Positions 2,268 through 25,868 of a stretch of 64,000 bases of DNA are shown one piece after another. Both the position numbers and the translations under genes were made by a program. Origin of the DNA: Eledone cirrhosa (Eukaryota); the NCBI GenBank assembly GCA_964016885.1, contig OZ024747.1:30504001-30568000 (forward strand). Direction: 5' to 3'. Numbering within the stretch: the first letter of the stretch is position 1; every line of letters begins with the position of its first letter. Below the pieces are notes generated by a model. It was not told where the DNA came from, did not search any database, and saw only the letters and a program-made list of their open reading frames with translations.

Positions 2268-2874
2268 TGTCAGGTCACCAGTTGGTGCTACTGGTAACAT
2301 GTATCCCAGTACAACCTGTCCCATGGTCGGGTCGTTGGCGACTAAACTGGCAACCCCACCAAGGTTTCTTGGTGAGGAGGGTGACTTTGGACATCCTGCA
2401 GGACTAAAAACAAAACCTGTCAAAGGGCAAAGGAGCTCTTAAGAGTCAATGGCCATCCAAAATCACCGGGAGAGATGACCCCTTAGCCTTTGTCAAGGCA
2501 GAATTCTAGGAGAAGGAAAACTCTGATATAACACCTGCAACCCTGATGGTATCCAATGATGTTGACTTGTTCTTCTTTTTGGTAAATATCATCTTGGTTA
2601 AGAGAGTGGGACTGGCTTTGTGCAGTGCCTTTGCTCACTATAAAAGCTTCACGGCACAGGCATTGCTTTATATCTGGAGATCTCTCTGCACTTGTCGTCA
2701 CATGGTACCATGGGCCCAGCACTATGTGTCAGTAATTGTCACAAGTGTAGTGTTTGTACCAGAGTTTTCAAGTCGCTGGCTGGACTAAAAAGTCACACTC
2801 GTTCAGCGCATCGGTAGGGGTTCTCCTACATGGATATAAAGTAGTGGCCGTACTCGAAAACGAGTTGGCAGCCA

Positions 2875-2911
<37 letters not shown>

Positions 2912-2917
<6 letters not shown>

Positions 2918-5900
2918 CAATATATGGACTCAAAAGCTCACAGCCCGCAAATTCGCCTTTTGGAATCTCCTAACAAATAATGGCAAGGCAGACATATATG
3001 AAAAGTGGCTAAACTCTACCCCAATCATCCTCCCCCAAAAATTTCAAATAAAACCCATCCCGAATGAACCAGAAAACCAACAAAAACTTAGGGAAACGAT
3101 GGCGTTAGAAAAGTTTAAAATAGAAATAGAACTGTTGCGGTTAAGAGCCAACTCCAACGAAGAAACATTCAAGTCACTCGACCAACAGATGGAAACAGAA
3201 ATCTCAAGGCACTCTGAAGGCCTACTCTATGAAAAGACCTTAAAACTTTGGAAAGAAAATTGTGAGGATGAAGAACTAACATCCCTCCAGCGATGGGAAA
3301 AAACGCCACCTGGTTCAACAACTACGAAATGGATTTCAAAAATGAACAACATACAGGTAACCCATTTATAAAACAAGCTAAAACTCACACACCACACTCA
3401 CAACAAATAACAAAAAAAGTAACAAAACGTCCAACATACCCCCAGCAAAACTATGACGATAATCCCAGAACCCATAGACAAAACTATAACCCTACTAAAA
3501 AAAAAACGAATGTCCCCCAACACAAGACAGGACCCGATCCGCAGATCACAACCCACACAAAACCTATTCAAAACCGTAGACCCCAACCCACACAGAACCT
3601 ATTCCAAAATCGTAGATCCCAACCCACACAAAGGAACAAAATCTACACCCGGACCATCAACAAACCGAACCTCAATACGTCCGAAACTTCTATACACAGG
3701 GGAAATGTCATTAGATATAATAATACCCATGAAAAAACAATTCAGAAAAATCATTTTTTAGACCAAGGCTACAGGACCCACGACACCCGGTGGCACAAAC
3801 CGATTTTAAAAAACCGAAAATAATCAACCTTTCAAATACAAACTTCTCAGCTCAAATTAAAATTCTCTCCAAAGGACTGAAATTCACACTAACACCATAA
3901 TACTCTACTCTAACCTCAATGAGATAAATGACGATATCTCACACCTCTGTAGAAAATTACGTCTCACAGAGGAATCTTTTGACAAGGAGAATAACGACCA
4001 ATCAATTGTATGGAATAAAAGCAGCTACAACCCAACAAAAGGTAGAAACAGAGTTCTGGACAAATTTTGTGACCACATAGCAACTTTCCCATACCATGAA
4101 CTACCGCAACCTAAACCCAGACTCAACACGAGTCGAAGGGAATGGGAGATTATCCATGAACTAAAAAACAATATGAACATTATAATTAAGGAAGCGGACA
4201 AGGGAAGTACTGTCGTCATTATGGATGCTGAACAATATAAAAATTCTATGTTCTCTCTCTTATAAAATACTAACTACTATGAAAGAGTAAAAAACTACCA
4301 GCAATCAAAAACGATGACCAGATTAAACACACTAATTTGTCGATACCAGGAAGACTTAACTAAAAAGGAACGCGATTATTTAACACATTTTGAATACAAA
4401 ACCAGCAACCTTTACGGACTTCCGAAGATCCACAAGTGTAAAATAATTAACGATGCCTGTAAATAATCCACCTCAACCTGCGTGAACACGCAATACCCCA
4501 CATACTTTAGATTAAGACGAATTGTAGCGGACCCAGAATGTGAAACACACAGACTAAGCAACTTTATAGACATACTACTAAAACCAATTCTCAAACACAT
4601 ACCAAGCCTTGTAAGAGACGATCTGGACCTCTTAAACCACCTCCCCAAACATGTCAACAACGACACTACTATTGTGTCTTTCGATGTAGTGAATCTCTAC
4701 ACAACGATCCCACACCAATACGGACTATAAGCAATAGGATTCTGGCTAGAGAAATATCCCAATGAGATACCTGACAGAATATAAAAAAAGCTTCATCACC
4801 GAGGGATTAAAATTTATTTTACAGAACAACTTTTTTGATTTCGATGGCAGTACTTACAAGCAAATATCGGGGACTGCGATGGGTACAAAAGTCGCTCCAA
4901 CTTATGCCAACTTAGTCATGGCATACTTGGAAGTCCAGATATATGAATAGTCCAAATCAAAATACGGATTGAACTTCCACAAATATTTATCAGAGAATTG
5001 GAAACGCTACTTGGATGATTGTCTCATTCTTTGGTCTCACACACTCGACCAACTAAATGATTTCAACAATTTAATTAACGGCATCAATAACCACATCCAA
5101 TTTTGAATAAAATACAGCCAAGATCAACTACCATTTCTGGACATCTTAATCATAAAAAAAGACACAAATATTGAAACCGACATACATTACAAACCAACAT
5201 ATTCCAAACAATACCTGCTATTCACATCCAACCATCCAAAGCACACGAAGACGAACATCCCTTTTAACTTAGCAAGAAGAATTTGCACAATTGTCTCCAA
5301 TTATGAAACGCGAAATAAAAGACTTCAAGAATTAAAGGAAATTCAACTCGAAAGACAGTACCCACCATTACTAATAAATAATGGAATAGAAAGGGCTAAA
5401 GCAATAGGCATTGATGAATTACGAAAACAGAAACAAATTCAAGGTACGTCCAATATTCTATCATATATCTCAACACACAACCCAAGAAATGCGGAAGCTT
5501 ACAAAACTATTCACAAGAACATCCCACTATTGAAACAAGGCCTAAGAATGAAAAAAGCCCTTGAAACACACAAAATAATCAAAAGCAAAAGACAACCGAA
5601 ATCACTAAAATCATTACTCACCAATGCCAAATTACCTACCACAAACCCACAACCAACTGTCAAAAAATGTGGTCGCTCTAATTGTGGAACCTGCACTCAC
5701 CTCATTGAAGGCAACACGTATACATTTCAAACAAGACAAAATTTTGCTGTAAAAAATCACTTCACTTGCTCATCAAAAAAATCTACTTTATGCCATTAAA
5801 TGTAAAGGATGCAATGAAAATTATATAGGACAAACTAAACTCACACTCAGAAACAGAATGACAATTCATCGCCAACAATTACGAGATCCTACCACAAGAC

Positions 5901-10800: not shown

Positions 10801-13483
10801 GTTAGTTGGTGATGGTGGACACTTGTTTGGACGTCACTTCCACACATGTATTGAATACATGCCATATATGTTTAGTTCTCTGACAATTATATATCTGTAC
10901 ATACATACATTCAAAGTATAATTTCTAAGTTTGTAAGAAACTCCTTTCTAGAAATAACTTCTGGAAAGAAGAGGAAATGTGTGATGACTAAACAAGTATC
11001 TTCCACCTTTAACTAACTTTCCCTCTGCCTCTGGGTCCTTGCTGACAGGATGGAGAATACATTGCCCTGGAGGTCGGTGAGGGAGATGAGCTGGACAGCC
11101 ATTCCACATTCAAAGTTGAACAGTAACAGGAAAACTAATTACAATTACAGATCTGCTGAAAATATGTCTACTATTAGGTATAAGGGTCGTTAGTTTGTTG
11201 TCCGTAATTATTAATGTCTTATACACTTTCCATTACAAACTGATTTGCTTATACAATGATGTCATCTGAGTGTAAACATATTACAACTGCTTTTTTTTGC
11301 AACTGTTGTCAGCTGTAGTAGACTTTGCAATTTTATAACTATAAATATTGTTGCAAATGTTTTTTTTATAGTTTATATTTTAAAATGCATGCATATTCCT
11401 ATTTGTGATAAATATTCCCTATCTCTATTTGTAGTAAACATTGAATATATTGTAAACAAAAGATAGAGGAAGTGAACAGGTTAAAGGTTTAGGTGTTGAA
11501 ATATGCTGAAGATTTACAGTATTCTTATGAATATACTGCAGCCAATACTCAAATTGTCAATATCAACTGTGAGAATTAATAACTTGTCAGTAAATATTGT
11601 ATATAGAATGAAGTTACATATAATGGTTAAAGAAGATGTCAGTGAAATTATATTAATTGCTAGTGTGGAAGAAAAGGAGTGACAAATACACTAACATAAA
11701 AAAGAAAAGTTGTGTCAATTATCAAATAATTTAGTTGCAATATTTGTAAGAAAACTAAATATATATAAAAGTAGTTTGTATCTCTCAACACCGTATTTTC
11801 TGAGGATTAATAACAAACTCTATACTTGTGAATTCTGTTCATCCTATTTCTCTTGTCAGTATTCTATAATTAGTATATTTATATTTTCCTATTTATCATT
11901 TAAACATGTAAGGGGGATTATTTAAAGCTTTCAGAAGGAAGCAAAGCGGTCACTAATAAAAATAGATAAACAAACAGAGACAAAAGAAGATAAATTTCCC
12001 CCACAAAACATATAAAGACTATCAGGAAATTTAATTCTGAAGATGTCGTAAAGGCTAGTATAATAATGCTTCATGTTTAACCTAATGAACCTGAATAACA
12101 TTTTAAAACCATTTTCTGTCAATTTAGATAATTTGTTTCAAATGTTATCTTCTCTGGAAATATTCTTGTCTGTTTTCTTAAGTACCTTATGGGCTCCAAT
12201 AAAACTTCTCAAGGTTCCTTAGTGTATTCAATTTTCCTGTTTTGTTTCCCTTAAAATATCATCATTCTAAACAGTTTGGCATCACATTATACAAATAGAA
12301 AATATTACAAAATATTATTTGTGTTCTTTTGTAGCTATAAATCACAACTGACTCAATCGATCATGTTGCAACAAAGATGTATGTGCAGCCAATGTCATAA
12401 CCAATATGCCTACATCAACGAGGTGTTGTATTACCATGTCAGACATAGGAAAATCAGTACCCTTACATTTGGGACAAACCTCATATTTGCAGACTATTTT
12501 TAAAGGTATTAGGGCATAAATTTAGTGAGTTTCATCAACAAAGACTTTGTTTTGATGTTGCATCATCTTTGGTTTTAGGTACACTTTTCCATGTTGGTTT
12601 GGGTTAGTTGGGACTTTTGAAGGCAATGTGTTACAACAAGATACCCTTCCTCATACTAACCATTTTAGTAACTTCTTATGGCATACAGGGATATGGTGTA
12701 CCTATTCTAAGCTAGATACATAGGTAAATCAGTCTGTTCGAGCCATTCCATTTCTAGAATATTTACTAGAAATAAGTATCCAATTCAGGGCCTTCTCATT
12801 CCTGCTGGAAGAACCACTCCCTAGTTGACCTCCATCACTTTCTGTTTGATTTTGACCATGTTAAGGGTATAGCCATACTCACCACGCTTGGCCAATTGCA
12901 GATTGGTGTGGCTATTTAATCCATAGTTGGGGTGGATGGCTGTTGACTTTGAGGAGTTCACCAGCCCTCTTTTTTAACAGCTTTTGTTTATTGTGTTGCT
13001 TTTGTTGGCAGTATTGCCTTAGAAATCTGATACAAGTTATAGTTGTCAAAGCAAAGAGTTTATTTTAAAGTGGATCTCACAATATAATAACACATTTTAT
13101 TGTATAGACTCCGAGGAGTTCATCTGCCCTTTTAAGTATCATGACTACAAGATGTGAGTGAAATGAAAATAGTTGAATTGAATTTTGAACTTATATCACT
13201 GACTTGGCTTACCAGAAGCTTCATACCACTACATATCTTTCTCACTTTCTTTCTATTATATAAAAACACACACATTCTTTTTTTTTTACTTGTTTCTGTC
13301 AGTAGACTGTAGCCATCCTAAGACACCACTTTAGTTTAATCAATTATATCGCCCCTAGTTCTAATTTTTTCAAACCTGTTAATAATTTCATCAATCTCTC
13401 ATTTGTCAATCCACTAGGTTATGGAACATAAATGCAGAGGGTCACAAATGTAAATATAGACACAGGCATACAATATATGTACA

Positions 13484-14749: not shown

Positions 14750-14862
14750 TAATCCACTTTTTTTCCAGGCAATGCAAGGATATTATATTAATATTAAAAA
14801 TATTTATCAACAAATAAGTTAAATAAATAATAATGAATAGGAAGAAGTGCAGATAGGAAAAG

Positions 14863-14935
14863 TAATCAGGGTGGGAATCGAACCCACGACCTTCGGATTG
14901 CCGATCCGCTGCTCTACCGACTGAGCTACCTGACC
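14863..14935 (-). pseudogene. tRNA-like cloverleaf (anticodon position GGC); probable pseudogene or element-borne tRNA mimic
   Basis: GGTCAGG-TA-GCTC-AGTCGGTA-GAGC-A-GCGGA-TCGGCAA-TCCGA-AGGTC-GTGGG-TTCGATT-CCCAC-CCTGATT-A. A and B boxes are intact, but position 33 is C instead of U and the acceptor stem has two terminal G-U pairs. Confidence 0.7.
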
Positions 14936-15239: not shown

Positions 15240-15269
<30 letters not shown>

Positions 15270-15277
<8 letters not shown>

Positions 15278-15610
15278 ATACTTTGGGAGGGTCATGTTCC
15301 CAATAAGAAACACACGCACCAGTTGCTTTCACTTCAATTTATTATAATAAATTTATAAATTTAGGAATTTATAAATTTCTGGTTGGTTGGTTGGTTCCAC
15401 AACCAGATAGTTGTTTATATATTGAAGAGGTCACAGAATGTGTGACGAAAGAACTTTAACAATATATAAACAACTATCTGGTTGTGGAACCAACCAACCA
15501 GAAATTTATAAATTCCTAAATTTATAAATTTATTATAATAAATTGAAGTGAAAGCAACTGGTGCGTGTGTTTCTTATTGGCAACATGACTCTCCCAAAGT
15601 ATAACAATAT
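15270..15610. mobile_element. Fold-back element, ~155-bp arms, hammerhead-like core in the loop
   Basis: The arms are near-perfect reverse complements. The loop reads TTGAAGAG-GTCACA(GAATG)TGTGAC-GAAAG-AA-CT-T. Adjacent to (TA)n. Confidence 0.8.
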
Positions 15611-15664
15611 CGGTTTCAACACACAATTTCAGATAAAGAATCTTGCTAAACAAATTCAGAAATG

Positions 15665-15723
<59 letters not shown>

Positions 15724-20980: not shown

Positions 20981-21011
<31 letters not shown>

Positions 21012-21053
21012 TAATTCTGGCAATATTACACAAATATGACCCTCCCCAAGTAT

Positions 21054-21088
<35 letters not shown>

Positions 21089-21276
21089 ACACCCTGGCTC
21101 TCCAAAACCTTGACGATGACAACCTCTACTCCAAGGTCACGGGAATCACTCCCGCGCAGATAGAAGAGCACATCAACGCCGCCTGGACCAACATCTGCGA
21201 CCGGTGAAAGCTCCCGAAGAAGCTGAGATACAACTTCCTCACGAGGAACAGCAGACTACCCGCCTTCTACCACCTC

Positions 21277-22701
21277 GTGAAAACACACAAACAGGGACCC
21301 GACCTGAAGATCAGGCCCATCGTATCGAGGGTGGAGGGACCACTCTACAAAATTTCATGGCTCCTAGCCAGAATACTCAAACCCATCTTAGACACCTTGC
21401 CGGGACACGTTAACAGCTCCGAGGAGGTGTTGAAGCGCCTGCATCAAATGGATCCCGACACCAGAAGGAATAACAGATATGCCTTCAGCCTTGATGTAGT
21501 CGCTCTCTACACCTCGGTCCCAGCACTCCCGGCTGTCAATATACTGATGGAACGCGTCCAATCCACCGACCTACACTGCTTCGGGCTCACCACCACTGAC
21601 ATCCACCAACTCCTATCCATCGTCGTCGACAACACCTACTTCGGATTCCTTGACCAAACATACCAACAAACCTCGGGATTTCCCATGGGATCAAGCCTAT
21701 CAGGTGCGCTAGCGATCTCTTACATGGACAACCTCGAACGCAAGGCTCTCAACGCCTGCCACCCCAACGCCGTAGCCTTTTTCTCAAGGTACGTGGACGA
21801 TATCCTCATCCTCACATCTTCCCAAGACACGGCGAACAGAATCTATGAGACGTTCAACAACACGGACGAGAACATTGACTTCAGTGTTGAACACCCCAAC
21901 AAAGACGGGTCACTTGCCCTCCTTGACTTCCGAATCAACATCACGGAACAGGGAAGGATCCACTGCAACTTCTACCGAAAGGCAGCCTGCAGGGACCTGT
22001 TCGTTCACTACAAGTCCGCCCTCCCTAACAGTGCCAAAAGAGGATACATCACGAACGAGATCACGCGAATCAAAAACAGATGCAGCGATCCTGCGAGTGG
22101 TGTCACTCATACCAACCGATTCCTCGAGGTGCTGGAGACGAACGGGTACCCTACCTCGATCACAGACAGAATAGGAGACACCAGACACAAGAGACAGAGA
22201 GGCACCCAAGGCAAGTGCTTCCTTAAAATGCCACACCTGGGCGAGAATACCACCAACGCTATCCGCAAGGCTATACGGAGGGAGGGCCTCGACATCCACC
22301 TGGCCCACTCGGGCCACTCCCTGCGAAGATGCCTCTCCAGGAAACCCAGGAAATCTACTGACGCATGCTCCCTCAGAGACTGCCCGATACGCCATGTGAA
22401 CTGTTGCCTACGCACATACGTCGTGTATAAGATAGAATGTGACAGGTGCAACCAATACTACATAGGTAGCACAATCCGACCTTTGCACATCTGGATCAAG
22501 GAACACACTAAAACCAGGGCCTCGTCTTTCCGGAAACACATAGACAAATGCGGAAACAAAGACAGAAGGCTCATTGTCACAATTCTAGCGACTGAAAGAA
22601 ACGTCGGCACGTTACGTATCAAGGAAGCGCTTTTTATCAAACGCCTGCAACCGCATATAAACAACCGATCAGAGAGAAGCGAAATGAGATGGCTGGTTTA
22701 A
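21277..22701 (+). CDS. Penelope-like element 2a: 5'-truncated RT + Zn-linker + GIY-YIG ORF (element ~21085-23405)
   Basis: KTHK..RPIVS, SLDVVALYT, GFPMGS, RYVDD, VVYKIECDRCNQYYIGST..L..KEH, EALFI..LQP.IN. The conserved Arg is W here and R in copy 2b. Confidence 0.93.
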   Translation: MKTHKQGPDLKIRPIVSRVEGPLYKISWLLARILKPILDTLPGHVNSSEEVLKRLHQMDPDTRRNNRYAFSLDVVALYTSVPALPAVNILMERVQSTDLHCFGLTTTDIHQLLSIVVDNTYFGFLDQTYQQTSGFPMGSSLSGALAISYMDNLERKALNACHPNAVAFFSRYVDDILILTSSQDTANRIYETFNNTDENIDFSVEHPNKDGSLALLDFRINITEQGRIHCNFYRKAACRDLFVHYKSALPNSAKRGYITNEITRIKNRCSDPASGVTHTNRFLEVLETNGYPTSITDRIGDTRHKRQRGTQGKCFLKMPHLGENTTNAIRKAIRREGLDIHLAHSGHSLRRCLSRKPRKSTDACSLRDCPIRHVNCCLRTYVVYKIECDRCNQYYIGSTIRPLHIWIKEHTKTRASSFRKHIDKCGNKDRRLIVTILATERNVGTLRIKEALFIKRLQPHINNRSERSEMRWLV

Positions 22702-23029
22702 GTTAACAAACGATGCAGCAACACACAACATACGCACACACACACACACACAAACGAGACAACTACACACACACACGCACACACACACAGTAGCATTCCA
22801 CCATACGTACATACTACACTGCCAATACTGAGGAACAAGGCAACAACACACACACACACACACTCAAGCGAGGCAACAACACACGCACACACACACACAG
22901 TAACATTTAACAAACAGGCAGAGAATGGACTGACAGCTAGCGCCACCCCACTCCCTCATTCGGCCGCTGACCTCTGCCCGACCGACCCCATTTCACGCGC
23001 ACGCGCGCTCTGCCGAATACCTCGGGTAT

Positions 23030-23405
23030 TCAAAACAACAAACGGCGGAGGATGCGTTTCGCACCTGTCCGACAGACAACCTTTTCCCCCACCCCAGAAA
23101 AAAACCCCAGTTGATGGATGTGAATCCGAAATATATAGGGACTATTAAATCTCTCCCAAGGTAACTCTCTCTTGTGTTCTTATTTTTATTTTTATTTCAT
23201 CCTTTATACTCTTCTCTTCATTCTTCTACACATCTTACACATCTTATACACACCACGCATCGCAACGTACACCCACTTACATCTCTCTCTCCGCCACCGG
23301 ATCTTGTTACCCGGAGATTTACCCATTTGCATTGTCGAGGCTTCCAAACGACTTAAAGATATTTACTTATTATTCCACAATGCTTCAAGCAAACTTCAAT
23401 ACTCT
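23030..23405 (+). repeat. Pseudo-LTR between tandem PLE copies, with atypical hammerhead (23105-23140), ATTAAA and a putative splice donor at 23161
   Basis: Lies between the end of ORF 2a and the ATG of 2b (~23380). Homologous to 6895-7240 and 25816-25870. Confidence 0.8.
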
Positions 23406-25868
23406 CTTAACCTTACACCTGAGCCAGGAATTGTTTGCATCAGTAAGGGAACTGTTTAGACTGTCGGAGAAATGGGACAACGCTGGCTGTCAAATTATTT
23501 TCATGAAACGCTGCCTAAAAAACGATGTAATCCCCAACACCATCAGGAACATCCGCTTACCAGTAAGCCTACGTACACCAGCTTTTCAAAACACCACTAA
23601 CCGCATACATCGCACGTGTATTAAACAGATCCTGAGACATCTCAACCGCCAATTACACTCTCAGAGCGGACATATCGACTGCCAATAGCACCCAGGGACT
23701 TGCTCCTGAAAATCACTAAAGCAATCGACCAGTGCTACCACTCCAGAGTCCAATACCAGAAAAAACGGCTCAAGCGAAAATATGAGTGGATCTTGTCGAA
23801 ACGCCACAACGAGAACATCGACACTAATGAACAGACGGACCAGAACGGTGTGGGAAACAACAACTTAACAACCACCACCACCGCATCCACCAACACCGAG
23901 CCATACCTCAACGATGCGACGCACCTGGTCTCCGACCTAACCGGCACTCTCATGAGCGACGAGCTGAAACTCCTACACCTCGGACCCAAGTTCATCGTCT
24001 CACAACGTCTCGACGACAGACTCAAACTCAACATCGAGGCCAACTTTTGTCGAGCCGCTTACCAAATTAAATGGGTGACCGCCATCAACAGCGCCACAGA
24101 AAATAACAGCGCCAACGCAACCCACCCCAAGTTCTCCACTTACCACCCCCCACCCACCAACCATGAACTGGACACTAAACTCATCAGGCTAAAACACACA
24201 GATATACTTCACAAACACACACACACACGCACAACACATAACCTCACCAAATCTCAACTCACCACTCTCTCCAACCTAAAATCGAAGAACCTCATCTATC
24301 TCCCCTCCGACAAGGGAAAAAAATTCTGCGTCATCAGCAGAGAGGCCTACAACACCCTGGCCCTCCAACACCTTGACGATGACAACCTCTACTCCAAGGT
24401 CACGGAAATCACTCCCACGCAGATAGAAGAGCACATCAAAGCCGCCTGGACCAACATCTGCAACCGGCGGAAGCTCCCGAAGAAGCTGAGATACAACCTC
24501 CTCACGAGGAATAGCAGACTACCCGCCTTCTACCACCTCGTGAAAACACACAAACAGGGACCCGACCTGAAGATCAGGCCCATCGTATCGAGCGTGGAGG
24601 GACCACTCTACAAAATTTCATGGTCTCCTAGCCAGAATACTCAAACCCATCTTAGACACCTTGCCGGGACACGTTAACAGCTCCGAGGAGGTGTTGAAGC
24701 GCCTGCAACAAATGGATCCTGACACCAGAAGGAATAACAGATATGCCTTCAGCCTTGATGTAGTCGCTCTCTACACCTCGGTCCCGGCACTCCCGGCCGT
24801 CAATATACTGATGGAACGCATCCAATCCACCGACCTACACTGCTTCGGGCTCACCACCACTGACATCCACCAACTCCTATCCATCGTCGTCGACAACACT
24901 TACTTCGGATTCCTTGACCAAACATACCAACAAACCTCGGGATTGCCCATGGGATCAAGCCTATCAGGTGCACTAGCGATCTCTTACATGGACAACCTCG
25001 AACGCAAGGCACTCAATGCCTGCCACCCCAACGCCGTAGCCTTTTTCTCAAGGTACGTGGACGATATCCTCATCCTCACATCTTCCCAAGACATGGCGAA
25101 CAGAATCTATGAGACGTTCAACAACACGGACGAGAACATTGACTTCAGTGTTGAACACCCCAACGAAGACGGGTCACTTGCCCTCCTCGAATTCCGAATC
25201 AACATCACGGAACAGGGAAGGATCCACTGCAACTTCTACCGAAAGGCAGCCTGCAGGGACCTGTTCGTTCACTACAAGTCCGCCCTCCCTAACAGTGCCA
25301 AAAGAGGATACATCGCGAACGAGATCGCGCGAATCAAAAACAGATGCAGCGATCCCGCGAGTGGTGTCACTCATACCAAGCGATTCCTCGAGGTGCTAGA
25401 GACGAACGGGTACCCTACCTCGATCACAGACAGAATAAGAGACACCAGATGCAAGAGACAGAGTAGCACCCAAGGCAAGTGCTTCCTTAAAATGCCACAC
25501 CTGGGCGAGAATACCACCAACGCTATCCGCAAGGCTATACGGAGGGAGGGCCTCGACATCCACCTGGCCCACTCGGGCCCCTCCCTGCGAAGATGCCTCT
25601 CCAGGAAACCCGGGAAATCTACTGACGCATGCTCCCTCAGAGACTGCCTGATATGCCATGCGAACTGTTGCCTATGCACATACGTCATGTATAAGATAGA
25701 ATGTGACAGGTGCAACCAATACTACATAGGTAGCACAATCCGACCTTTGCACATCCGGATCAAGGAACACACTAAAACCAGGGCCTCGTCTTTCCGGAAA
25801 CACATAGACAAATGCGGATCTTGTTACCCGGAGATTTACCCATTTGCATTGTCGAGGCTTCCAAACGA

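What the first reader, a model, noticed from the sequence alone, without database searches (positions are those of the whole stretch)
15270..15610. Hammerhead core forms the loop of a ~155-bp hairpin
Seen: the only non-palindromic part of this fold-back element is AAGAG-GTCACA(GAATG)TGTGAC-GAAAG-AA-CTT, which makes up stems II/III and the core. Stem I therefore extends into the entire inverted repeat. The right arm begins TAACAATAT while the left reads ATATTG|AAGA. This suggests loss of TTACTG from ATATTGTTA-CTGAAGA (inference), which would inactivate this copy. A related terminus (ATGACCCTCCCCAAGTATAACAATA) abuts (TA)n at ~21036-21060, next to PLE 2a. A MITE-like hairpin with a ribozyme at its apex is an unusual design.
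Basis: partly seen in the sequence, partly recalled or inferred. Interest (0 to 1): 0.75.

Follow-up and report, generated by a model that had tools for sequence, protein, structure and literature searches.

The report
Twin-ended stub of a Penelope retrotransposon
This hairpin is two cut-short copies of the ribozyme-bearing end of an abundant Penelope-like jumping gene joined head to head, not a ribozyme-capped mini-transposon, and RNA-editing-like scars shared by both halves of sister insertions suggest that such halves are likely copied from one RNA molecule.

Summary
The hairpin (about 151 bp, 35-nt loop) and the hammerhead remnant are real, but this is not a MITE family. It is a head-to-head pair of 5'-truncated pseudo-LTRs of a Penelope-like element (RT plus GIY-YIG) inserted in (TA)n. 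The hammerhead belongs to the pLTR: the canonical core pattern matches 15,926 places and has a 4-5 bp stem I. The window's joint pattern matches 2 places, and the intact 'ribozyme at apex' joint matches 5, from different subfamilies. Joints vary from -1973 to +184 and show no genome-wide excess at the cut site. This architecture is published. Family data bear on an open mechanism: 56 of 59 complete pairs have exactly one tailed end, and in 6 A-to-G-hyperedited insertions both arms share their edits. This favours two priming events on one uncut sense RNA; fold-back is not excluded for this copy. Arm ends cluster just upstream of a conserved AARATGGCG motif, a candidate RNA start. The scan noted twin priming and edit barcodes before, on other DNA of this genome.

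The parts
15242..15269 (.). (TA)n target, left side
   Evidence: (TA)n flanks both ends in 52 of 56 pairs
15270..15424 (-). Inverted, tail-less pLTR copy, from +161 back to +4 relative to the predicted ribozyme cut (5' UTR plus first 8 codons)
15423..15424 (.). Joint of the two arms, 2-nt TG overlap
   Evidence: joint pattern at 2 places genome-wide
15422..15460 (+). Hammerhead remnant: TTGAAGA (C3 replaced by T from the other arm), bulged G, stem II 15430-15435/15441-15446, GAAA 15447-15450, 2-bp stem III, predicted cut after 15456; 5' strand of the true stem I (GTCA) lost
15423..15610 (+). Forward pLTR copy, from -33 to +161; element start codon at 15585
15611..15668 (+). One-sided tail = ORF codons about 9-28 (with a private stop codon here); the ORF continues past it in L035/L113
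   Evidence: tail pattern at 12,100 places
15669..15715 (.). (TA)n target, right side
21008..21060 (+). Separate 57-nt 3' end of a sister PLE family between (TA)n runs; not part of this element

Best explanation
The hairpin is an insertion of two 5'-truncated pseudo-LTR copies of a Penelope-like retrotransposon joined head to head in a TA repeat, likely made when both cut target strands primed reverse transcription on one uncut element RNA. Shown: identity of the element, the tail as ORF start, variable joints, one tailed and one tail-less end, and shared edits between arms. Inferred: the GIY-YIG domain nicks both strands of (TA)n; one strand primes at +161 and the other at +219 (the two internal start sites that define the tail); both cDNAs run towards the RNA 5' end and stop at variable places; their 3' ends are joined at a short overlap (here TG). 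The hammerhead lies in the loop only because one cDNA stopped at -33 and the other at +4. It is predicted to be inactive here, since C3 is replaced and core letters are taken into the long helix.
For: Parent element: near full-length natural copy with RT and GIY-YIG whose ORF begins in the arm and runs through the tail. Of 89 tail-anchored loci, 64 have an adjacent inverted arm; 56 of these end at +158..+161 and 3 at +219. In 25 of 56 pairs the tailed arm is the shorter one, which fold-back from either end cannot make. Tailed arms that stop at +155..+170 are in excess (7 of 31, 2.6 expected, p=0.013), as in L1-type inversions. Arms agree at subfamily sites (22 of 22 at -18 and 23 of 23 at +5, about half expected). 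Six hyperedited insertions share A-to-G marks between arms (7/9, 29/29, 12/20, 23/34, 13/14, 23/26 shared/union; between insertions mean 0.21, maximum 0.54). Edits are sense-strand, so the template was sense RNA. Many arms run through the cut site, and there is no excess of ends there (23 matches, most of them small deletions, against 35 at a control position). In vitro, a Poseidon protein cuts and extends both strands, starts at two internal sites and uses unprocessed RNA (PMC11167929).
Against: For this copy the tailed arm is the longer one, and its geometry also fits a snap-back of one cDNA; no edit marks are present to decide. 17 of 56 pairs are near-symmetric (3 expected by permutation), some at local palindromes, which suggests fold-back in part of the family. 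Shared edits also follow from fold-back or later gene conversion. In the locus sample 5 of 83 ends fall at -1..+6 (1.9 expected, p=0.04), a weak hint of cut RNA that the genome-wide patterns did not confirm. PMC11167929 saw no strand difference in start site. The usual ADAR avoidance of a 5' G (recalled) was not seen. The sample is 92 loci from the first 100 pattern hits on one contig, biased to young, tailed copies.
Confidence: 0.65

Rival explanations
1. Same element, but the second arm was made by snap-back: one cDNA primed at +219 stopped at -33, folded back near the hammerhead stems and copied itself to +161.
For: In this copy the tailed arm is the longer. Flush stem-I joints exist at 5 loci. 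There is an excess of symmetric pairs (17 of 56). Self-priming was proposed for rotifer PLEs (PMC3846280, passages). Shared edits are predicted too.
Against: It cannot make the 25 of 56 pairs in which the tailed arm is shorter, including pairs with almost no overlap. Among 9 inspected joints near the ribozyme, 3 have the tail on the short arm. The antisense-template version predicts T-to-C marks, but 6 of 7 edited insertions show sense A-to-G.
Confidence: 0.27
2. A non-autonomous fold-back element (MITE-like or retrozyme-like) that spreads as a unit, with a hammerhead whose stem I is the long inverted repeat.
For: Five loci have an intact core flush with the long arm. L173 carries A-to-G on one arm and T-to-C on the other (19 of 29 and 26 of 43 changes), which suggests that a whole hairpin transcript can be reinserted.
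Against: The window's joint pattern matches 2 places, which belong to different subfamilies. The five flush joints come from several subfamilies, with the tail on either side. No transposase-type ends or tandem monomers were seen. Contigs from another sample continue into the canonical 3' UTR at 15423.
Confidence: 0.04
3. The short arm ends at +4 because it was copied from an RNA already cut by the hammerhead, so the loop is a footprint of cleavage.
For: The left arm ends 3 nt from the predicted cut. In the sample 5 of 83 ends lie at -1..+6 (p=0.04), three of them at or within 1 nt of +1.
Against: Genome-wide patterns show no excess at +1 (the patterns miss joints that share a letter with the native sequence). 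Most arms pass through the site. Minimal PLE hammerheads cut poorly in vitro (PMC4209133).
Confidence: 0.12

Closest known systems
Endonuclease-positive Penelope-like insertions with inverted 5'-truncated pLTR and one-sided tail (PMC3846280, PMC8557442; passages read)
   Same: Partial tandems, adjacent inverted pLTR, tail on one end that extends the ORF start, microsatellite target, joints by short overlap.
   Different: The tail is 58 nt rather than 30-40 nt. This copy is truncated so far that only the two pLTR ends remain.
Minimal type I hammerheads of metazoan PLEs (PMC4209133; results and discussion read)
   Same: Helix I 4-5 bp, helix II 6 bp with an unpaired base at its 5' end, tiny helix III; that paper also notes pairs of motifs 100-700 bp apart on opposite strands.
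   Different: In this copy the core is broken at C3 and the true helix I is lost.
Internal initiation in Poseidon of Anolis (PMC11167929; main text read)
   Same: Two start sites inside the ORF start define the tail; both strands are extended; unprocessed RNA is used.
   Different: That study saw no strand difference in start site and did not address inverted pairs; here the two ends are nearly always one of each.
L1 twin priming (PMC9148063, passage citing Ostertag and Kazazian 2001)
   Same: Two target strands prime on one RNA and give an inverted segment.
   Different: Here both primers start internally, 58 nt apart, and the copies usually overlap, giving a hairpin.
MITEs and non-LTR retrozymes (bioRxiv 10.64898/2026.07.22.740005, part 1 of 5 read; MITE features recalled)
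   Same: Short, non-coding, hairpin-like or hammerhead-bearing, PLE-derived (retrozymes).
   Different: No fixed internal structure, no amplification as a unit, no head-to-tail tandem of ribozyme monomers.

Membership tests
EN+ Penelope-like element | Single ORF with RT and C-terminal GIY-YIG | tested here: met
   L052 ORF: RVT_1 E=5e-4 and GIY-YIG E=2e-4, both below Pfam's curated cut-offs; YVDD and domain order in L113, whose ORF has one frameshift
EN+ Penelope-like element | pLTR from partial tandem that includes the ORF start | tested here: met
   L113
EN+ Penelope-like element | Adjacent inverted truncated copy and one-sided tail | tested here: met
   56 of 89 tail-anchored loci have a tail-less inverted partner
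Neptune or Nematis clade | CX2-5CxxC linker before GIY-YIG and CCHH motif | tested here: met
   CX4CxxC, then two C and conserved H in the nuclease of L113; features from PMC8557442. Hydra's CxCX5C and DKT are absent
Neptune or Nematis clade | Phylogenetic placement that separates the two clades | not tested
   No reference sequences fetched
Minimal type I hammerhead (family) | CUGAnGA, GAAA, UH, helices I and II | tested here: met
   105 of 124 arms with intact core; helix II 97.6% paired with 2 doubly changed pairs, helix I 82% paired, in 7 related rows
Minimal type I hammerhead (this copy) | Intact C3 and free core | tested here: not met
   TTGAAGA; the fold pairs TTG into the long stem
Hammerhead ribozyme | Self-cleavage | not testable with these tools
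   Needs an assay; no RNA run was listed
MITE | Many copies of uniform length and internal structure | tested here: not met
   Joint pattern at 2 places; arm ends spread over 2 kb
Non-LTR retrozyme | Head-to-tail tandem units, each with a hammerhead | tested here: not met
   Head-to-head arrangement, one broken ribozyme

The most novel reading that the evidence does not exclude
Penelope-like elements insert by paired internal priming: the two cut target strands start at two fixed sites on one uncut RNA, always one of each. ADAR edits written into the germline act as single-molecule barcodes that show this. Hairpin insertions like this one then supply the double-stranded RNA that gets edited and can be reinserted whole as passenger elements. 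The RNA starts about 70 nt upstream of the ribozyme, at a YY1-like motif.
Probability: 0.55. Interest if true: 0.7.

Novelty: new member of a known kind. Interest (0 to 1): 0.42.

Why it matters
The copy itself is ordinary debris of a known element class. The family matters because how PLEs make their inverted insertions is stated as open (PMC8557442, passage). Thousands of young copies, fixed start sites and molecule-specific edit marks give predictions that the published in vitro system could test directly. It also warns that ribozyme-in-a-hairpin calls in such genomes are usually truncation products.

Tried and rejected
Rfam scan of the window: no hammerhead hit. Ribozyme cut as the source of the loop: no excess at +1. 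Ongoing homogenisation of arms: 142 unshared against 11 shared rare variants (control 0.45 shared), so arms are not generally converted. L174 came from an edit pattern search but has 1 edit per arm and was dropped. Fold of the tail region in the window: no stable structure (z=0.52); a conserved hairpin behind the two ends was not tested further. Sequencing runs: no RNA holder listed, so expression, cleavage, start site and small RNAs were not tested. Contigs of 4 runs did not cover the joint, which proves nothing. Paper searches (listings only) showed no title or abstract start that applies twin priming to PLEs, reports ADAR marks in genomic PLE copies, or links YY1 to pLTRs. Subscription papers are missing from the library, and no supplements were read. 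Sequence look-up in earlier findings was blank. No genome-wide T-to-C control pattern was run; the control is the absence of T-to-C, G-to-A or C-to-T clusters among 278 alignments, against 4 A-to-G clusters.

Full report
Observation. The inverted repeat and loop are as described: about 151 bp of stem, one 4-nt bulge, two differing columns and a 35-nt loop holding stem II, GAAA and a 2-bp stem III. Rfam did not call it. Positions below are relative to the predicted cut after window 15456 (+1 = 15457).

What it belongs to. A search of the 3.0-Gb own genome gave 815 candidates, of which 40 were scored. Most copies continue upstream of the loop into a 3' UTR and an ORF with RT and GIY-YIG motifs. 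L113 holds an inverted tailed copy, a truncated tandem copy, a roughly 4.2-kb unit with one frameshift and a tail-less final pLTR. The arm is the element's 5' UTR with its start codon (window 15585). The 58 nt after the right arm (15611-15668) are codons 9-28 of the ORF, which continues in L035/L113. This is the published arrangement of pLTR, inverted truncated copy and one-sided tail (PMC3846280 and PMC8557442, passages). The CX4CxxC linker and CCHH residues point to Neptune or Nematis; no tree was made. Exact patterns match 12,100 places for the tail and 15,926 for the canonical ribozyme context.

The ribozyme. In the family the motif is GTCA, CTGAAGA, a bulged G, a 6-bp stem II, GAAA, a 2-bp stem III, TH, then TGAC. 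Of 124 aligned arms that span it, 105 keep the core (these include loci picked by likeness to the window). A sister family with about 72-78% identity in the ORF keeps the core and changes two stem II pairs on both sides (7 related rows, so few independent events). This matches the minimal PLE hammerheads, which did not cut as monomers in vitro (PMC4209133, results and discussion). In the window the 5' strand of stem I and C3 are gone, and the fold takes TTG into the long helix, so activity is unlikely (inference).

Not a MITE. The window's joint pattern matches 2 places, of different subfamilies. I examined 92 loci covering most of the first 100 tail matches on contig C1 and dropped 3 nested ones (L035, L036, L096). 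Of the remaining 89, 25 had no adjacent partner, 56 had a partner ending at +158..+161, 3 at +219, and 5 were cut off or interrupted. Arm 5' ends in the 56 pairs range from -1973 to +184; the window's are -33 and +4. These look like separate joints at the 4-nt stem I overlap. Contigs from another sample run on into the canonical 3' UTR at 15423.

No clear cleavage footprint. A pattern for arms that begin at +1 matched 23 places, most of them small deletions, against 35 for a control at -8. In the locus sample 5 of 83 ends lie at -1..+6 (1.9 expected, p=0.04), and 6 of 83 lie at -38..-31 (p=0.011, window chosen after seeing the data). The strong cluster is at -110..-90: 20 of 83, 4.9 expected, not reached in 5000 scan simulations. 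It lies at and just 5' of an AARATGGCG motif that the sister family also keeps. The likeness to a YY1 site is recalled; that YY1 positions L1 initiation is from PMC9148063 (passage). An RNA start is inferred; an RT pause in the AC-rich tract is the rival.

How the two arms arise. Nearly every complete pair has one tailed and one tail-less end (56 of 59; the sample was chosen for having a tail, so only the partner is informative). The tailed arm is longer in 14, shorter in 25 and within 15 nt in 17. The 25 cannot come from simple fold-back. Arms agree at subfamily sites almost always. Some copies carry dense sense-strand A-to-G changes: 4 of 278 alignments (2 insertions), with no cluster of another type. 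Three pattern searches found further cases. In six insertions the two arms share their edits far more than different insertions do (the L166 figure is lowered by unrelated sequence in one arm). Edited A's favour a 3' G (0.49 against 0.17-0.35), but no 5' G avoidance was seen, so ADAR is inferred. One further insertion, L173, has A-to-G on one arm and T-to-C on the other, as expected if one transcript across a whole hairpin was edited and reinserted; this is a single case. Together with the in vitro work on Poseidon (both strands cut and extended, two internal starts, predicted dimer, unprocessed RNA; PMC11167929, main text), the best model is twin priming on one sense RNA. Against it: 17 symmetric pairs (3 expected), and the window's own geometry, which fits snap-back as well.

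Novelty and verdict. The identity as a PLE stub is near certain (about 0.97); the mechanism is about 0.65. The architecture and the ribozyme type are in print. My six searches of the held library (listings only) showed no paper on twin priming in PLEs or on edit marks in their genomic copies, but subscription papers and supplements were not seen. Earlier notes of this scan report both ideas on other DNA; I had reached them before looking, and they are not independent support. Those notes call the genome an octopus, which I did not test. Class: new member of a known kind. Interest 0.42.

Noticed in passing
L016, L113, L166, L167, L168, L169: Insertions with 8-39 sense-strand A-to-G changes per arm, mostly between -280 and +78 and nearly absent from +80 to +219; the sharp right edge is unexplained (protein protection or an antisense RNA starting near +80).
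   Followed up: partly
L173:1221-1967: Hairpin insertion with A-to-G on one arm and T-to-C on the other, that is one edited strand across both arms; the edited stretches of the two arms overlap only in part.
   Followed up: partly
L175-L179: Five insertions with an intact hammerhead core whose stem I runs flush into the inverted arm; three are complete hairpins.
   Followed up: yes
family positions -110..-86 (e.g. L046:1215-1245): Cluster of arm ends at a conserved AARATGGCG motif, candidate transcription start.
   Followed up: partly
window 14862-14935 (-): tRNA-Ala with anticodon GGC, unusual for an animal (recalled); possibly a pseudogene or SINE head.
   Followed up: no
window 21088-25860 (+): Partial tandem of an unrelated PLE (RT plus GIY-YIG); near 23105-23142 is a hammerhead-like stretch with GAAA but an irregular first box.
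   Followed up: no
L074:5493-5547 (+): A third hammerhead type (CTGATGA, 7-bp stem I) with 10 hits among the fetched loci.
   Followed up: no
L113 minus strand about 4830-5200: Asparagine/threonine-rich repeat insert in the ORF's N-terminal part, holding the frameshift; recalls the N-rich inserts of rotifer PLEs (PMC3846280).
   Followed up: no
L115 minus strand 2377-3480: Internally deleted copy that fuses the ORF start in frame to the RT core.
   Followed up: no
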